DNA of 32,000 nt from Pseudoalteromonas tetraodonis (lineage in GTDB: Bacteria > Pseudomonadota > Gammaproteobacteria > Enterobacterales > Alteromonadaceae): positions 270,001-302,000 of the forward strand of contig NZ_CP011041.1 in NCBI RefSeq assembly GCF_002310835.1, read 5' to 3'. The position numbers and the translations under genes are program-made. Of this stretch, positions 8,014 to 21,785 are shown piece after piece. Every line of letters begins with the position of its first letter. Positions within the stretch are counted from its first letter, which is position 1. Under the pieces are notes generated by a model that was given only the letters and a program-made list of their open reading frames with translations, had not been told where the DNA came from and did no database searches.

Positions 8014-10032
8014 ATGAAACTCAATCCTAAACAAGATGAAGCGGTAAAGTACATTAGTGGTCCTTGCTTAGTATTAGCTGGCGCAGGCTCGGGTAAAACA
8101 CGAGTTATCACCAACAAAATTGCTTACTTAGTACAGAAGTGTGAGTATCAAGCGCGTAATATTGCGGCGGTTACCTTTACCAATAAAGCGGCTAAAGAAA
8201 TGCGCGAGCGGGTTTTGCAAACCTTAGGAAAGCAAGAGTCTAAAGGTTTATGGGTCTCTACATTTCATACACTCGGGCTTGAAATCATCAAAAAAGAGTT
8301 AAAAACACTGGGTTTTAAGCCTGGTTTTTCGCTGTTTGACGACCAAGATACGAATCAACTACTCGGTGATTTAACCGAAGATGAGCTTAAAAAAGACAAA
8401 GACTTACTTAATCTACTTAAAATGCAAATTGGTAGCTGGAAGAATGAACTCATTTTACCAGAGCAAGCTATTCGCGAAGCCAGAGAGCCACAAAAAGCCT
8501 TGTTCGCTCAATTGTACGCACGCTATCAAAACCAACTTCGCGCTTATAATGCACTCGACTTTGATGATTTAATTATGATCCCCACGCTGCTTTTAAGCAG
8601 TAACGCCACTTCACGTGAACGTTGGCAGCAGCGTTTTCGGTATTTACTGGTGGATGAATACCAAGATACTAATACCAGCCAATACCAATTAGTAAAATTG
8701 CTGGTTGGTGAACGTGCACGCTTTACTGTGGTAGGAGATGACGATCAGTCAATTTACTCTTGGCGTGGTGCTCGCCCACAAAACTTGGTGCTATTAAGTA
8801 AAGACTATCCAGGATTAAGATTAATAAAACTAGAGCAAAATTACCGTAGTGCAGGGCGCATTCTTAAAGCGGCTAATATATTAATTGCAAATAACCCCCA
8901 TGAGTTTGAAAAAAAGCTCTTTAGTGAACTTGGCTATGGTGAGCAAATTAAAGTCATTGGTTGTCGCGATGAAGAGCATGAGTCTGAGCGTGTGGTTGCA
9001 GAGATTATTTCTCATAAGTTTATGAAGCGCACCAGCTATAAAGATTACGCGATTTTGTACCGGGGTAATCACCAAGCGCGTGGTTTTGAAAAGTCGTTAA
9101 TGAGTAACCGTATACCTTATAAAATTAGCGGCGGGATGTCGTTTTTTTCACGTTCTGAAATTAAAGATATCATGGCTTACTTACGTCTTTTAGTGAACCA
9201 AGATGATGACAATGCCTTTTTAAGAATCGTGAATACGCCACGGCGTGAAATAGGCACGGTGACGCTTGAAAAACTAGGCACCTTAGCCAATGAAAAACAT
9301 CAAAGCTTGTTTGCCACCTGTTTTGATAACGACTTAGGATACAGACTAAAAGGACGTGGTTTTAATGCGTTAGCTGGGTTTGCCCGTTGGGTGGTTGAGC
9401 TGTCGGATAACGCAGTACGCAGCGATACCTTAGAAGCGGTCAAAGATTTAGTGCGAAATATTAATTATGAAGCCTATTTATATGAATCATCACCGAGTGC
9501 CAAAGCCGCCGAAATGCGGATGAAAAATGTCTCGGAGCTGTACCGTTGGATCACCGATATGCTGACTGGCGATGCCGATAATCCGCCAATGACGTTAGCT
9601 GAAGTGGTTAGTAAATTGACCCTGCGCGATATGCTAGAGCGTAACGAGGAAGAAGATGAAGCAGATGCAGTACAATTACTTACGCTGCATGCTTCAAAGG
9701 GACTCGAGTACCCTTATGTATTTATGGTAGGCATGGAAGAGGGGCTATTACCACACCAAGTAAGCATTGATGAGGATAATGTAGATGAAGAGCGCCGCCT
9801 TGCCTATGTAGGTATTACCCGCGCGCAGCAAGAGCTAACCTTAACGTATGCTAAAATTCGTCGTCAATTTGGTGAAACATCGCAAACGGAGCTCAGCCGG
9901 TTTGTGCAAGAGCTACCACAAGATGACTTAGCCTTTGAAAACAAAAAAGCGCCTAATACTCAAGCTGAACGCATGGAAAAAGGCCAAGCTCGGGTTGCAA
10001 ATTTAAGGGCAATGCTAAAAAAACCACAATAG
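8014..10032 (+). CDS. rep: ATP-dependent DNA helicase Rep
   Basis: 672 aa, collinear with E. coli Rep. Shared motifs include [62 protein letters not shown] and [23 protein letters not shown]. Confidence 0.96.
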
Positions 10033-18897: not shown

Positions 18898-19554
18898 TTA
18901 TTCGCTATCTGGCGCTACTAAATCAGCAGGTGGAACGGCCACGATTGGGCCTAAATACCACTCATCTAGCTTTTTAGCGACTTCTGGTAAGCCGGTGCCT
19001 TTAAGTGATGAAAATGCATGAACCGTAATATCGCCATCTAATTCACTTAACTCACGACGTACGCTAAGAACTTGTGATTTACGCGGACCTTGCTTTAGCT
19101 TATCGGCTTTAGTTAATAGTGCCAATACCGGAATTTCACTGCCTACAGCCCAATTAATTAAGTCGCGGTCTAAATCTTTTAATGGATGACGAATATCCAT
19201 TAATACCACAATACCTTTTAAACTTTGACGTTTTTGCAGGTATTCGCCTAGCGATTTTTGCCATTTCTTTTTCATTTCAATCGGCACTTTTGCAAACCCA
19301 TAGCCAGGTAGGTCAATTAGGCGCATATTATCTACATCGGCAAGTTCAAAGGTGTTGATCAGCTGAGTACGGCCGGGTGTTTTACTGGTTCGTGCTAACT
19401 TTTGATCGGTTAGGGCATTTAGCGCACTTGATTTACCTGCATTAGAGCGACCGGCAAACGCGACTTCAATTCCCGTATCAGCAGGTAATTTAGTGATGTC
19501 TGGCGCGCTTGTAACAAAAGACGCAGTGTTATACTTGATACGAGATTTGAGCAC
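18898..19554 (-). CDS. engB: Ribosome-biogenesis GTPase EngB (YihA)
   Basis: It has [17 protein letters not shown] (G1), DLPGYG (G3) and LTKADK (G4), and is collinear with E. coli YihA. The GTG start has AGGAG 5 nt upstream. Confidence 0.93.
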
Positions 19555-19835: not shown

Positions 19836-20468
19836 ATGAAAAAAATAGCACTATCTTTAACTATATTGCTTGGTGCGTTGTCAGCAAGCAACGCAACAGC
19901 ATTTGATGGCGATGTAAACGCAGGTAAAGAAAAATCAGCAACGTGTGCGGCTTGTCACGGCCCAGACGGTAATGCGCCGGTTAACATCTACCCAAAAATT
20001 GCAGGCCAACACGCAGATTACATATACAAGCAACTTACTGAATTTAAATTAGGTATGACTTCGGGCGGTAAAGAAGGTCGTATGAATCCAGTAATGAGCG
20101 GTATGGCAATGCCATTAAGTGATCAAGATATGAAAGACTTGGCTGCTTACTTTGCTTCTTTGAACATGTCTGAAGGTGCTACACCGAAAGATGTTCAAGA
20201 AACAGGCGCAATGTTATATAAAGCAGGTGATGCTGAGCGCGGTATCCCATCATGTGCGGCTTGTCATGGTCCACGTGGTAATGGCTCTTCACTTGCTAAA
20301 TTCCCAAAGATTTCTTTCCAACATCCAGAATACATCAAGTCACAACTTGAACAGTTCAGAGATGGTGTTCGTAATAACGACCTAAATGGTGTTATGCAGG
20401 ACATTGCAAAGAAACTAACAGATAAAGACATTGAAACACTCTCTAAATACCTTGGTGGTCTACACTAA
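19836..20468 (+). CDS. Diheme cytochrome c4
   Basis: It has a signal peptide and two CAACHGP heme motifs in duplicated ~100-aa halves. engB-cc4 adjacency is also known in Pseudomonas. Confidence 0.9.
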   Translation: MKKIALSLTILLGALSASNATAFDGDVNAGKEKSATCAACHGPDGNAPVNIYPKIAGQHADYIYKQLTEFKLGMTSGGKEGRMNPVMSGMAMPLSDQDMKDLAAYFASLNMSEGATPKDVQETGAMLYKAGDAERGIPSCAACHGPRGNGSSLAKFPKISFQHPEYIKSQLEQFRDGVRNNDLNGVMQDIAKKLTDKDIETLSKYLGGLH

Positions 20469-20520: not shown

Positions 20521-20543
20521 AGGCAGCTTTAGCTGCTTTTTTT
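20521..20543 (+). terminator. Rho-independent terminator of the cytochrome c4 gene
   Basis: AGGCAGC (20521-20527), loop TTTA, GCTGCTT (20532-20538), with a T-run to 20543. Confidence 0.85.
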
Positions 20544-20740
20544 GTGCCTGCCGTGACCGATAAAGCTCCTTCTCTTGTAAGACATTGACCATACTTTGGT
20601 GTAAGAAAAATCTCATTTTATTTTTATTTTTTAATGTAACTTATTGTAATTTATATTTTTTAGTGTTTTTTGTCATATGTAGTACAAGAAAAAAGATATA
20701 AATTAGTTGTAACAAAATTATTAACGAGTAAATTAACCCC

Positions 20741-21045
20741 TGTCGCAAAAACAATAACAAATAGGAAAACGTTATAAGGATAGTAGCGCGGCACGACTGA
20801 ATAGCACATAGAGTGTGCTACCAAAGGAAATATCAAAAAAGTGTTAGGAAGACCGAAAATAATAAAATACTCATGGAAGTTTAATAATAAAAACAAAATG
20901 GAATGCTACACGGAAGATAAATAATAAAAATACGGATAGAAAATAATAATAAAAACAATAAAGACTAAAAAGTCGAAGGGAGAAGTGTCCATATAATGGC
21001 GCTCAGATTAGTAGGCGGTAGAGATGTTTTCTCTACCGCCTTTTT
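20741..21045 (+). ncRNA. Csr/Rsm-family-like GGA-repeat regulatory RNA candidate (CsrA sponge)
   Basis: Nine GGA motifs lie on the + strand between 20763 and 20981, and there is no TCC on that strand over 20760-20985. The spacers are A-rich degenerate repeats. The terminator is GGCGGTAGAG (21014-21023)/CTCTACCGCC (21031-21040) plus T5. A putative promoter is TTGTAA (20707-20712), 16-nt spacer, TAAATT (20729-20734). The predicted 5' end TGTCGC.. resembles CsrB/RsmZ 5' ends. The position matches E. coli csrC, which lies between yihA and yihI. The 5' end is not established. Confidence 0.7.
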
Positions 21046-21200
21046 ATTTGTCCTGTTACAATACCCCCCGTTTAAAAAAAGCACCTTAACTGTGCTTTGG
21101 CGCGCAAAACGCCCAAACTGAATTCTCCTGGCTAGGCCAGCACCGCGATGCCCATTGAGTTGCGCCTCGCTCAAAACCTCTTAAGTGAGACGATCAAGAT

Positions 21201-21785
21201 ATGAGTAGAAAGAAAAAGTCACGTAAAATTCCATCAAATGGTCCCGTTCGTTTAAGTCAAGATAAGCTTAAAGAAATGCGCGCATTGAAAGAGCAACGTG
21301 TTAAAAAAACTAAGGGCGCTAAGCCTGGTTCACGTAATGCACCGGATGCATTGAGTAATGACACTCAAAAAGCAGGTTCGGCTGCTAAAGATAAACGCGT
21401 TGGTAGTAAAAAAGCAGTGCCATTGGTTGCACCTGCTGCTGAACCAAAAATCGAAATGAAACGTAACCTTAAACCTGTAGCAGAGCTTAAAAAGGCTGTT
21501 GAACCAGAATTAACGCCTGAACAAGAGTTAGAAGCCCTTGAAAATGATGAGCGCTTACTTAAATTAGTTGAGCGTCATGAGCAAGGTGAAATGCTAACGG
21601 GTAAAGATGCAAAATACTTTAATAGCCGCATAGCGCGTCACCAAGTGCTTTGTAAATTATTAGGCATTGAAGATGAAGAAGAGTTTGAAGATGACTTCAG
21701 CGATGAAGACAGTAATTCAGACTTTGATCAATACCTATCAAACGATCTAGCGAATGAATGGCTAGATGACGACGAAGATAAGTAA
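21201..21785 (+). CDS. yihI: Der GTPase-activating protein YihI
   Basis: It has a basic N-terminus and an acidic C-terminus. KDKRVGSKKAVPL parallels E. coli YihI KDPRIGSKTPIPL, and LEALENDERL parallels LELLETDERL. Confidence 0.85.
   Translation: MSRKKKSRKIPSNGPVRLSQDKLKEMRALKEQRVKKTKGAKPGSRNAPDALSNDTQKAGSAAKDKRVGSKKAVPLVAPAAEPKIEMKRNLKPVAELKKAVEPELTPEQELEALENDERLLKLVERHEQGEMLTGKDAKYFNSRIARHQVLCKLLGIEDEEEFEDDFSDEDSNSDFDQYLSNDLANEWLDDDEDK

What the first reader, a model, noticed from the sequence alone, without database searches (positions are those of the whole stretch)
20576..21045. Csr/Rsm-type GGA-repeat sponge RNA candidate at the csrC-syntenic locus, with atypical A-rich repeat spacers
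The 730-nt gap between cytochrome c4 and yihI has no credible CDS. On the + strand there are nine GGA motifs: AGGA at 20763, 20777, 20825 and 20846; TGGA at 20874 and 20899; CGGA at 20911 and 20933; and AGGGA at 20977. Over 20760-20985 there is no TCC at all, which is a strong strand asymmetric signal. No GGA occurs in the 200 nt upstream. The motifs are spaced by degenerate repeats of AATAATAAAAA-like sequence with a period of roughly 25-35 nt. At least one motif sits in a hairpin loop (CGTTAT-AAGGAT-AGTAGCG, 20771-20789). The unit ends in a strong terminator (10-bp GC-rich stem at 21014-21040 plus T5). A candidate promoter (TTGTAA, 16-nt spacer, TAAATT at 20707-20734) predicts a 5' end TGTCGC at about 20741, reminiscent of the GTCGAC/TGTCGAC starts of CsrB and RsmZ. 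In E. coli csrC lies between yihA and yihI, so the locus is syntenic. Two TGTAAG half-sites (20576-20581 and 20600-20605) match half of the GacA/UvrY box TGTAAG-N6-CTTACA, but I see no complete palindrome. The unusual feature is that most GGAs are embedded in long single-stranded A-rich (ARN-like) tracts rather than in the stem-loops typical of CsrB, RsmY and RsmZ. This raises the possibility of a dual CsrA/Hfq (distal-face) binding RNA or a lineage-specific Csr RNA family.
Basis: partly seen in the sequence, partly recalled or inferred. Interest (0 to 1): 0.7.

Follow-up and report, generated by a model that had tools for sequence, protein, structure and literature searches.

The report
Known CsrA sponge RNA (Pf3/CsrC)
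The gap holds the gene for a small RNA already published in a sister species (Pf3, the counterpart of E. coli CsrC) that soaks up the regulator CsrA. The only fresh point is that its A-rich stretches are strictly conserved (AAN)n tracts that look like docking sites for a second regulator, Hfq.

Summary
There are nine GGA on the + strand at 20764-20979 and no TCC between 20568 and 20987. A strong terminator lies at 21013-21041, and the gap has no credible ORF.

The element is not new. It aligns end to end (about 90% identity) with Pf3, a Csr sRNA of Pseudoalteromonas fuliginea. Pf3 is already shown to bind CsrA by EMSA, glycogen assay and RIP-seq (PMC11882849). A csrC was also predicted in P. 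haloplanktis in 2006 (PMC1488887), probably at this locus.

I found it in all 78 complete species-level Pseudoalteromonas loci, with GGA positions, promoter, 5' end TGTCGC and 3' domain conserved.

TGTAAGACATTGACCATA matches the footprinted Salmonella csrC site at 16 of 18 bases and lies at -165, against -168 in E. coli.

No Rfam Csr/Rsm model reaches threshold.

One point is absent from the papers I read. The A-rich "spacers" do not drift. They are five (AAN)3-7 tracts with invariant AA and a wobbling third base (p = 3e-9), predicted single-stranded and absent from E. coli CsrC. This is the Hfq distal-face, CrcZ-like signature, so a dual CsrA/Hfq sponge is plausible but untested.

Verdict: already known, with a modest new lead.

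The parts
20576..20593 (.). csrC-type UvrY/GacA-family binding site (weak-symmetry inverted repeat), TGTAAGACATTGACCATA, at -165 from the predicted +1
   Evidence: Matches the Salmonella csrC site TGTGAGACATTGACCATT at 16 of 18 bases and the E. coli csrC site at 15 of 18. UvrY-P footprints the E. coli site (PMC4682653). None of 5000 shuffles reaches 16. The best match sits at exactly -165 in 64 of 78 loci. The E. coli site is at -168.
20600..20617 (.). Second TGTAAG box with a degenerate palindrome partner (TGTAAG-N6-CTCATT)
   Evidence: A site scoring at least 9 of 12 falls about 105-110 nt upstream of the -35 hexamer 61 times over 79 loci. The two arms change together in relatives (TAGGA..TCCTA in L002 and L047).
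20707..20712 (+). -35 hexamer TTGTAA
   Evidence: GTTGTAAC is invariant or nearly so in 77 loci. It aligns with the E. coli csrC -35 region (A3). The ortholog's promoter fragment drives GFP (PMC11882849).
20729..20734 (+). -10 hexamer TAAATT (TAGATT in many relatives)
   Evidence: GTA(A/G)ATTA is conserved genus-wide. It aligns with E. coli csrC GTAAAGTA.
20741..21049 (+). Pf3/CsrC-type sRNA, about 309 nt (predicted 5' end TGTCGC to the terminator U-tail)
   Evidence: Aligns at about 90% column identity with published Pf3, located through the paper's own coordinates. Orthologs occur in 78 of 78 complete loci, 280-328 nt long except two expanded ones. MFE z-score is -3.3.
20741..20746 (+). P1 stem, 5' arm (UGUCGC)
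   Evidence: Pairs with 20788-20793. 93% of cells are paired, with one compensatory CG to UA change.
20747..20761 (+). (AAN)5 tract T0, AAAAACAATAACAAA
   Evidence: Predicted unpaired probability 0.85.
20764..20766 (+). GGA 1 (AUAGGA)
   Evidence: Invariant columns in 73 sequences.
20771..20787 (+). Hairpin presenting GGA 2 (20778-20780) in its loop
   Evidence: All five pairs have changes on both sides across relatives. Present in the MFE structure.
20788..20793 (+). P1 stem, 3' arm (GCGGCA)
20802..20820 (+). Variable hairpin
   Evidence: The surrounding segment 20791-20822 is the least conserved of the RNA (mean column entropy 1.46). An 8-bp stem forms in the MFE. It is replaced by a tandemly amplified 46-nt unit in L071 and L072.
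20826..20828 (+). GGA 3 (AAAGGA)
20847..20849 (+). GGA 4 (UUAGGAAGACCG)
   Evidence: The following GACCGA block is nearly invariant.
20858..20866 (+). (AAN)3 tract T1
   Evidence: AA columns are 100% A and N columns vary. Unpaired probability 0.91.
20875..20877 (+). GGA 5 (CAUGGAAGU)
20883..20897 (+). (AAN)5 tract T2
20900..20902 (+). GGA 6 (AAUGGAAU)
20912..20914 (+). GGA 7 (CACGGAAG)
20920..20931 (+). (AAN)4 tract T3
   Evidence: Unpaired probability 0.98.
20934..20936 (+). GGA 8 (UACGGAUA)
   Evidence: Invariant columns.
20942..20962 (+). (AAN)7 tract T4
   Evidence: Unpaired probability 0.97.
20963..20974 (+). Small hairpin GACU-AAAA-AGUC
   Evidence: Present in the MFE. 91% of cells are paired.
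20972..20990 (+). Nearly invariant 3' block GTCGAAGGGAGAAGTGTCC, containing GGA 9 (20979-20981)
   Evidence: 18 of its 19 columns are invariant in the 40 aligned sequences and the other is at least 90% conserved. Used as a probe it recovered 53 genuine Pf3 loci from metagenomes.
20984..21003 (+). Conserved hairpin AGUG-U-CCA...UGG-CGCU just before the terminator
   Evidence: Present in the MFE. 91% of cells are paired, but the pairs are mostly invariant, so covariation cannot test it.
21013..21041 (+). Intrinsic terminator stem-loop (12 bp)
   Evidence: 99% of cells are paired and 5 pairs have compensatory changes.
21042..21049 (+). U-tail UUUUAUUU, which together with the closing U at 21041 reads UUUUUAUUU
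   Evidence: Invariant.

Best explanation
The gap encodes the Pseudoalteromonas ortholog of Pf3, the csrC-class member of the Csr/Rsm sponge RNAs.

Proposed mechanism, with each step marked as shown or inferred:
1. A BarA/UvrY-type (GacS/GacA-type) response regulator binds the weak-symmetry repeat at -165, perhaps helped by the second TGTAAG box. It activates a sigma-70 promoter (TTGTAA, 16 nt, TAAATT). This is inferred from site homology.
2. Transcription starts at about 20741 (TGTCGC) and stops at the terminator at 21013-21049, giving an RNA of about 309 nt. The ends are predicted, not mapped.
3. The RNA displays nine A(N)GGA motifs. One sits in a hairpin loop supported by covariation. The others lie mostly in single-stranded stretches.
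4. These motifs bind CsrA dimers and titrate CsrA away from mRNAs. This is shown for the P. fuliginea ortholog and inferred here.

Between the GGA sites lie five strictly conserved single-stranded (AAN)3-7 tracts. Their role is not known. The most likely one is binding the distal face of Hfq (see rivals and novel case).
For: Identity:
- The paper's Supplementary Data 1 places Pf3 at NZ_JJNZ01000017.1:37490-37948, which is my L035:4761-5219, and at NZ_JWIG01000001.1:877685-877224, which is L038:4759-5220.
- Window 20596-21052 aligns with both from end to end at 90% mean column identity.
- Pf3 has 9 GGA motifs and lies in an intergenic region.
- Its promoter fragment drives GFP. It shifts with CsrA in EMSA. 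It raises glycogen in E. coli. It is a top CsrA RIP-seq peak.

Locus:
- Window order is engB/yihA(-), cytochrome c4(+), RNA(+), yihI(+).
- E. coli order is yihA(-), csrC(+), yihI(+).
- Kulkarni et al. predicted a csrC in P. haloplanktis. They state that csrC homologs always lie near yihI and yihA and have their own upstream site.

Regulation:
- The upstream site matches the Salmonella csrC site at 16 of 18 bases, at the same distance from +1.

Conservation:
- The RNA is present in 78 of 78 complete species-level loci, with 8-10 GGA each.
- It is present in 53 of 53 genuine metagenome loci.

Structure:
- 91.7% of cells are paired, against 31-51% for slid controls.
- 12 pairs have compensatory changes.
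Against: - There are no transcript, 5'-end or binding data for this strain. Function is transferred from an ortholog about 90% identical.
- No Rfam Csr/Rsm model reaches threshold. CsrC scores 8.8 bits against a cut-off of 61, and only on the terminator.
- There is no significant similarity of the RNA body to E. coli CsrC.
- GGA density is low for the class: 9 in 309 nt, against 14 in 246 nt for CsrC.
- Single-sequence GGA enrichment is only moderate (18 of 2000 shuffles).
- The promoter scores 8 of 12 to the sigma-70 consensus.
Confidence: 0.9

Rival explanations
1. Dual sponge. Besides CsrA, the RNA binds Hfq hexamers through its five (AAN)n tracts on the distal face, with the U-tail on the proximal face. 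It would titrate or share Hfq as CrcZ does in Pseudomonas. That would place the CsrA and Hfq regulons under one UvrY-controlled RNA. This adds to the best explanation and does not replace it.
For: - There are 24 AAN triplets in runs of 3 or more, against 9.5 +/- 3.9 in dinucleotide shuffles (0 of 300). The same holds in 91% of 76 species.
- AA columns have mean entropy 0.18 and N columns 0.93, Mann-Whitney p = 2.8e-9.
- The tracts are more conserved than most of the segments that carry the GGA motifs.
- Predicted unpaired probability of the tracts is 0.86.
- 4 of the 16 (AAN)>=4 runs found on both strands of the 32-kb window lie inside this 220-nt stretch.
- E. coli CsrC has no such run.
- Rfam's only sub-threshold RNA-body matches are three pieces of CrcZ.
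- CrcZ binds the Hfq distal face through six A-rich stretches with Kd of about 7 nM (PMC5501646).
- Hfq is reported to bind the Csr-class RNA RsmY (PMC5583355).
Against: - There are no binding data.
- The Pf3 paper reports no Hfq interaction for Pf3.
- The U-tail is interrupted (U5-A-U3).
- A-rich unpaired linkers could be selected for other reasons.
- CsrB and CsrC of enterobacteria work without Hfq (my own knowledge).
Confidence: 0.35
2. The (AAN)n tracts are structural or turnover elements only. They would be unstructured, non-pairing linkers that keep the GGA sites accessible and correctly spaced for bridging by CsrA dimers. They could also serve as RNase E entry sites for CsrD-type controlled decay. 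No second protein would be titrated.
For: - The tracts are predicted unpaired (0.86), and the GGA sites between them are accessible (0.65, against 0.44 for the rest of the RNA).
- The genome is A+T rich.
- RNase E prefers A/U-rich single strands, and CsrB/C decay depends on CsrD and RNase E (my own knowledge).
Against: - A need for 'no structure' would tolerate A to U or A to C changes at any position. Instead the two A positions of each triplet are 91% A, and only the third base varies.
- Tract register and length are kept across a genus whose YihI proteins have diverged to about 52% identity.
Confidence: 0.3
3. It is not an independent RNA but a 5' leader or attenuator of yihI.
For: It has the same orientation as yihI and lies directly upstream of it in this clade.
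Against: - A 12-bp GC-rich terminator with a U-tail lies 150 nt before yihI.
- In the pigmented clade a 224-aa methyltransferase gene sits between the RNA and yihI, yet the RNA is unchanged.
- The ortholog acts in trans on CsrA.
Confidence: 0.03

Closest known systems
Pf3 sRNA of Pseudoalteromonas fuliginea BSW20308 (Duan et al. 2025, Commun Biol, PMC11882849)
   Same: It is the same gene. It shares the locus between cytochrome c4 and yihI. It aligns end to end at about 90% identity, with 9 GGA, the same upstream box, promoter, 3' domain and terminator.
   Different: It comes from a different species (closest to Pseudoalteromonas sp. M30B23), with a few substitutions and indels. The paper does not discuss the yihI/csrC synteny or the A-rich tracts; searches of its text for 'yihI' and 'A-rich' returned nothing. 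It treats the AAT-rich BLAST matches to zebrafish as possible homologs.
CsrC of E. coli and Salmonella (Rfam RF00084)
   Same: - Same position and orientation, directly upstream of yihI and next to yihA.
- Same kind of weak-symmetry UvrY site at the same distance from +1 (16 of 18 and 15 of 18 matches; -165 against -168).
- The -35 and -10 regions can be aligned.
- Multiple A(N)GGA sites and an intrinsic terminator.
   Different: - The RNA body shows no detectable similarity (RF00084 8.8 bits against 61; nhmmer 3 bits).
- Cytochrome c4 is inserted between yihA and the RNA.
- GGA sites are fewer and mostly unstructured.
- CsrC has no (AAN)n tract.
CsrB, RsmY, RsmZ and RsmX (Rfam clan CL00106); Pf1 and Pf2 of Pseudoalteromonas
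   Same: The mechanism class is the same: UvrY/GacA-activated RNAs with many GGA sites that titrate CsrA/RsmA. The 5' end TGTCGC resembles GTCGAC of CsrB and RsmZ (my own knowledge).
   Different: - No covariance-model match.
- Pf1 and Pf2 carry 25 and 21 GGA in about 510-560 nt, against 9 here.
- The upstream site is csrC-type, not the symmetric csrB-type.
CrcZ and CrcY of Pseudomonas (Rfam RF01675)
   Same: Several single-stranded AANAANAA-type tracts are spread along an RNA of 300-400 nt. In CrcZ six such stretches bind the Hfq distal face with Kd of about 7 nM.
   Different: - The matches are far below threshold (16.8, 14.3 and 9.3 bits against 95).
- CrcZ has no GGA array.
- CrcZ is driven by CbrB and RpoN (my own knowledge), not by a UvrY site.
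- Hfq binding has not been tested here.

Membership tests
Pf3 (Pseudoalteromonas Csr sRNA, PMC11882849) | Sequence similarity to the published Pf3 over its whole length | tested here: met
   Pf3 was located through the paper's own BLAST table (L035:4761-5219 at 100%; L038). Window 20596-21052 aligns end to end at 90% mean column identity.
Pf3 (Pseudoalteromonas Csr sRNA, PMC11882849) | Nine GGA motifs, an intergenic position and a rho-independent terminator | tested here: met
Pf3 (Pseudoalteromonas Csr sRNA, PMC11882849) | Binds CsrA and antagonises it | not testable with these tools
   Shown for the P. fuliginea ortholog only, by EMSA, glycogen assay and RIP-seq.
CsrA-regulating sRNA (five criteria of Kulkarni et al. 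2006) | Located in an intergenic region | tested here: met
   The 732-nt gap between c4 and yihI has no credible ORF.
CsrA-regulating sRNA (five criteria of Kulkarni et al. 2006) | High concentration of AGGA/ARGGA motifs | tested here: met
   9 GGA and 7 ANGGA in 272 nt. This is the highest count in the window, although one coding region has 7 GGA. The motifs are conserved in 73 sequences.
CsrA-regulating sRNA (five criteria of Kulkarni et al. 2006) | Rho-independent terminator | tested here: met
CsrA-regulating sRNA (five criteria of Kulkarni et al. 2006) | GGA in loops or free regions of the predicted structure | tested here: met
   Mean unpaired probability of the GGA sites is 0.65, against 0.44 for the rest. 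GGA 2 sits in the loop of a covarying hairpin. This is a prediction only.
CsrA-regulating sRNA (five criteria of Kulkarni et al. 2006) | Conserved upstream activator site (csrB, csrC or rsmY type) | tested here: met
   A csrC-type site at -165, matching the Salmonella csrC site at 16 of 18 bases.
csrC class (positional and regulatory definition) | Lies in the neighbourhood of yihI and yihA | tested here: met
.
CsrC, Rfam RF00084 | Covariance-model score at or above the gathering threshold (61 bits) | tested here: not met
   8.8 bits, on the terminator only. No hit at the gathering threshold.
CsrB RF00018, RsmY RF00195, PrrB_RsmZ RF00166, RsmX RF02144 | Covariance-model score at or above the gathering threshold | tested here: not met
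   No match appears even at E <= 10 in a 781-nt search.
CrcZ, Rfam RF01675 | Covariance-model score at or above the gathering threshold (95 bits) | tested here: not met
   Three fragments score 16.8, 14.3 and 9.3 bits. This is a resemblance of A-rich motifs only.
Hfq distal-face ligands ((ARN)n; CrcZ-like or class II sRNA-like) | Single-stranded (A-R-N)n tracts of at least 3-4 repeats | tested here: met
   Five tracts of 3-7 AAN repeats, with invariant AA, a wobbling N and unpaired probability 0.86.
Hfq distal-face ligands ((ARN)n; CrcZ-like or class II sRNA-like) | Direct binding to Hfq that is lost with a distal-face mutant | not testable with these tools
   I found no data, and the Pf3 paper reports none for Pf3.

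The most novel reading that the evidence does not exclude
Pf3, the CsrC ortholog of Pseudoalteromonas, would be a bifunctional sponge. Nine A(N)GGA sites titrate CsrA. Five interleaved, strictly conserved (AAN)3-7 tracts bind the distal face of Hfq, as in CrcZ. One UvrY-controlled RNA would then set the free pools of both global post-transcriptional regulators. In this lineage the csrC gene would have traded GGA hairpins for Hfq sites.
Probability: 0.3. Interest if true: 0.6.

Novelty: already known. Interest (0 to 1): 0.25.

Why it matters
As a Csr sponge it adds nothing new. The RNA is published as Pf3, and a csrC was predicted in this genus in 2006.

Three small points come out of this work:
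1. Pf3 is the positional and regulatory ortholog of enterobacterial CsrC, because it shares the yihI neighbourhood and the UvrY site. The Pf3 paper never mentions yihI.
2. Pf3 is universal in the genus: 78 of 78 species-level loci, against 70% of genomes by BLAST in the paper.
3. Its A-rich tracts are under codon-like AAN selection without being coding. This explains the puzzling 'zebrafish homologs' in the paper. It also gives a concrete, cheap experiment for CsrA-Hfq cross-talk, which the paper raises only in general terms.

Tried and rejected
- **Rfam at gathering threshold, whole window:** nothing. In E-value mode on the gap it gave only terminator look-alikes and weak CrcZ fragments.
- **Homology of the RNA body to E. 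coli CsrC:** an nhmmer profile of 73 Pf3 sequences against the E. coli locus scored 3 bits, on the terminator only. Smith-Waterman against shuffles was borderline and inconsistent between species. Rejected. Only the promoter and the UvrY site are demonstrably homologous.
- **Reaching other genera:**
  - The YihI protein search returned only Pseudoalteromonas in the 120 hits listed.
  - The metagenome probe for the invariant 3' block gave 53 Pseudoalteromonas-type loci and 13 chance hits in GC-rich coding DNA.
  - It is still open whether csrC-locus RNAs of Vibrio, Shewanella or Colwellia carry AAN tracts.
- **Coding explanation for the 3-nt periodicity:** rejected. The tracts lie in different frames, in-frame stops occur, no + strand ORF exists, and the antisense ORF is not conserved.
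- **RNAalifold's long-range pairing of 20840-20843 with 21000-21003:** not adopted. A local alternative using 20984-20987 is equally invariant, so covariation cannot decide between them.
- **Second GGA-rich stretch at about 9506-9790:** it lies inside a 672-aa ORF.
Full report
**1. Observation**

The sequence is as described.
- The + strand carries GGA at 20764, 20778, 20826, 20847, 20875, 20900, 20912, 20934 and 20979.
- TCC is absent from 20568 to 20987.
- There is no GGA between the cytochrome c4 stop codon and 20763.
- The stretch ranks first in the 32-kb window for GGA minus TCC.
- The RNA body has 9 GGA, against 1.4 expected from window-wide frequency (Poisson 1.7e-5). Dinucleotide shuffles give 4.6 +/- 1.5, and 18 of 2000 reach 9. 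ANGGA occurs 7 times against 2.2, and 4 of 2000 shuffles reach 7.
- A 12-bp terminator stem at 21013-21041 with a U-tail follows.
- The small ORFs of the gap have no Pfam match, and the antisense 78-aa ORF is not kept in relatives.

**2. Surroundings**

The flanking genes are:
- an EngB/YihA-type GTPase on the - strand (18898-19554);
- a di-haem cytochrome c4 (19836-20468, +);
- YihI (21201-21785, +);
- DUF2489, and then hemN on the - strand.

In E. coli K-12 the order is yihA(-), csrC(+), yihI(+), hemN. The synteny claim is therefore correct, apart from the inserted cytochrome c4 gene.

**3. Relatives**

A scan of one genome per species with cytochrome c4 returned 80 Pseudoalteromonas loci. 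The window is closest to Pseudoalteromonas sp. M30B23.
- All 78 loci with a complete gap keep c4 followed by yihI.
- All 78 carry a cluster of 8-10 GGA at nearly the same distances from the c4 stop: about 300, 314, 358, 379, 407, 432, 444, 467 and 511.
- This holds even though YihI identity to the window protein falls to about 50%.
- The alignment shows a nearly invariant GTTGTAAC (-35), GTA(A/G)ATTA (-10), a 5' end TGTCGC, a 3' block GTCGAAGGGAGAAGTGTCC and the terminator.
- A metagenome probe for the 3' block found 66 stretches. 53 are the same locus, with c4 at 80% identity or more wherever the gene lies on the contig. 13 are chance matches in unrelated GC-rich coding DNA.

**4. Identity**

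The literature search settled this.
- Duan et al. 2025 (PMC11882849) describe Pf3 in P. fuliginea BSW20308. It has 9 GGA motifs and lies in an intergenic region. Its promoter fragment is active in a GFP fusion. It shifts with CsrA in EMSA, raises glycogen in E. coli, and is among the top CsrA RIP-seq peaks.
- Their Supplementary Data 1 places Pf3 at NZ_JJNZ01000017.1:37490-37948 and NZ_JWIG01000001.1:877685-877224. These are exactly my L035:4761-5219 and L038:4759-5220.
- The window aligns with both from 20596 to 21052 at 90% mean column identity.
- Kulkarni et al. 2006 (PMC1488887) had already predicted a csrC in P. haloplanktis, between PSHAa2751 and PSHAa2752. I could not check which genes these are. 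They state that csrC homologs always lie near yihI and yihA and carry a distinct upstream site.

The finding is therefore a known RNA.

**5. Regulation**

- The first, TGTAAGACATTGACCATA (20576-20593), is in fact the full csrC-type site.
- Zere et al. 2015 (PMC4682653) show by ChIP-exo and DNase I footprinting that UvrY-P binds a weak-symmetry repeat upstream of csrC. The sequence is TGTGAGACATTGCCGATA in E. coli and TGTGAGACATTGACCATT in Salmonella. A further TGTAAG half-site lies nearby.
- The window site matches these at 15 of 18 and 16 of 18 bases. None of 5000 shuffles reaches 16.
- It lies at -165 from the predicted +1, against -168 in E. coli. In 64 of 78 loci the best match sits at exactly -165.
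- The -35 and -10 regions also align with the E. coli csrC promoter.
- The second box (20600-20617, TGTAAG-N6-CTCATT) recurs at a constant distance from the -35 hexamer: 61 sites scoring 9 of 12 or better over 79 loci. Its arms co-vary.
- Deep-branching and pigmented species add a more symmetric csrB-like repeat at -188.

**6. Architecture of the RNA**

Predicted span 20741-21049, 309 nt.
- Stem P1 pairs UGUCGC with GCGGCA (20788-20793). It encloses the first A-rich tract, GGA 1 and a hairpin that shows GGA 2 in its loop.
- All five pairs of that hairpin change on both sides among relatives.
- A variable hairpin follows at 20802-20820.
- Then comes a long, mostly unpaired array in which GGA 3-8 alternate with A-rich tracts.
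- Two small conserved hairpins flank the exposed GGA 9.
- The terminator closes the RNA.
- Over 40 sequences, 91.7% of cells in this structure are paired, against 31-51% when partners are slid by 1-3 columns. 12 pairs show compensatory change.
- The base two positions before GGA is A in 82% of motifs, which is the A(N)GGA core.

**7. The A-rich 'spacers'**

They do not.
- They form five tracts: 20747-20761, 20858-20866, 20883-20897, 20920-20931 and 20942-20962. They contain 5, 3, 5, 4 and 7 AAN triplets.
- Without using any alignment, the window RNA has 24 triplets in runs of 3 or more, against 9.5 +/- 3.9 in dinucleotide shuffles (0 of 300). In 91% of 76 species no shuffle reaches the observed value.
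- In the alignment of 73 distinct sequences, the two A columns of each triplet are 91% A (mean entropy 0.18). The third column varies freely (entropy 0.93). Mann-Whitney p = 2.8e-9.
- Segment entropies of the four internal tracts are 0.19-0.48 and that of the 5' tract is 0.67, against 0.58-1.03 for the segments that carry the GGA motifs and 1.46 for the segment with the variable hairpin.
- The periodicity is not coding. The tracts are in different frames, are interrupted by stops, and no ORF covers them.
- The tracts are predicted unpaired (0.86).
- 4 of the 16 (AAN)>=4 runs on both strands of the whole window lie in this 220-nt stretch.
- E. coli CsrC has none.
- The only sub-threshold Rfam matches in the RNA body are three fragments of CrcZ.

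**8. Mechanism**

Shown for the ortholog, inferred here: a UvrY/GacA-type activator turns on the promoter, and the RNA sequesters CsrA through its GGA sites.

Inferred from sequence only: the (AAN)n tracts have the form of the (A-R-N)n motif bound by the distal face of Hfq in Gram-negative bacteria (my own knowledge).
- CrcZ uses six A-rich stretches to bind the Hfq distal face with Kd of about 7 nM (PMC5501646).
- Hfq is reported to bind the Csr-class RNA RsmY (PMC5583355).

I therefore rate a dual CsrA/Hfq sponge at about 0.3-0.35. The alternative is that the tracts are only linkers or RNase E entry sites. It is about equally likely. However, it explains poorly why only the third base of each triplet is free to vary.

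A role as a yihI leader is very unlikely. The terminator is strong. In the pigmented clade a methyltransferase gene separates the RNA from yihI.

**9. Membership**

- The element meets all five sequence criteria of Kulkarni et al. for CsrA-regulating sRNAs.
- It meets the positional and upstream-site definition of the csrC class.
- It fails the Rfam covariance models for CsrC (8.8 bits against 61), CsrB, RsmX, RsmY, RsmZ and CrcZ.
- It shows no significant similarity of the RNA body to E. coli CsrC.

So it is a member of the published Pf3 family and the positional and regulatory ortholog of CsrC. It is not a member of RF00084 as that family is modelled.

**10. Verdict**

The novelty class is 'already known'. 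What remains is a testable lead (Hfq), the CsrC orthology argument, and the genus-wide presence of the RNA. Interest is 0.25.

Noticed in passing
L071:5041-5387 (Pseudoalteromonas sp. C2R02); also L072 (P. denitrificans DSM 6059); a single copy in L063: A 46-nt unit (AGAGATGAAAGTTCAGCAGAGTAAAAACTGAATAAAGATTCCAATA) is tandemly amplified about 7 times inside the Pf3 body. It replaces the variable hairpin and doubles the RNA to 605-652 nt. The unit has no GGA and folds only weakly. Amplifying a non-GGA module inside a sponge RNA suggests a further ligand.
   Followed up: partly
L056:5269-5943, and the other loci with gaps of about 1320 nt (L047-L080, mostly the pigmented clade): A 224-aa SAM-methyltransferase-like ORF (Pfam Methyltransf_23, E = 7e-23) lies between the Pf3 terminator and yihI. 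Pf3 therefore stays linked to cytochrome c4 and not to yihI.
   Followed up: partly
Upstream regions of L056, L058, L063, L067, L071 and L073 (about -188 from +1): Deep-branching and pigmented species carry an extra, more symmetric csrB-like repeat. An example is TGTGAGATATCTCTCACC, which matches the E. coli csrB site at 15 of 18 bases. It lies upstream of the csrC-type box.
   Followed up: partly
All 78 complete loci L001-L080; metagenome loci L082-L147: Pf3 is present in every species-level representative with an intact c4-yihI gap, and in all 53 genuine metagenome loci. The Pf3 paper found it by BLAST in only 69.9% of 672 genomes, which is probably an effect of the BLAST threshold.
   Followed up: yes
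window 20858-20962 (A-rich tracts): The Pf3 paper discusses BLAST 'homologs' of Pf3 in zebrafish and wasp genomes that consist of TAA/AAT-rich repeats. The low-complexity (AAN)n tracts explain these matches, so there is no need to invoke homology.
   Followed up: yes
window 20614-20670: A T-rich tract (ATTTTATTTTTATTTTTTAATG...) lies between the UvrY boxes and the promoter. It is complementary to the A-rich tracts of the RNA (inverted repeats I1-I9). It lies upstream of the predicted +1, so it is probably promoter architecture (bent DNA or an UP-like element) and not an RNA partner.
   Followed up: no
window 20523-20536: The cytochrome c4 terminator (GCAGC-TTTA-GCTGC flanked by A and T runs) reads as a terminator on both strands. 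It is the source of the weak STnc130 and STnc40 Rfam look-alike matches.
   Followed up: yes
window 9506-9790: The second-richest GGA stretch of the window (7 GGA, 1 TCC) lies inside a 672-aa ORF (8014-10032). It is coding sequence, not an RNA candidate.
   Followed up: yes
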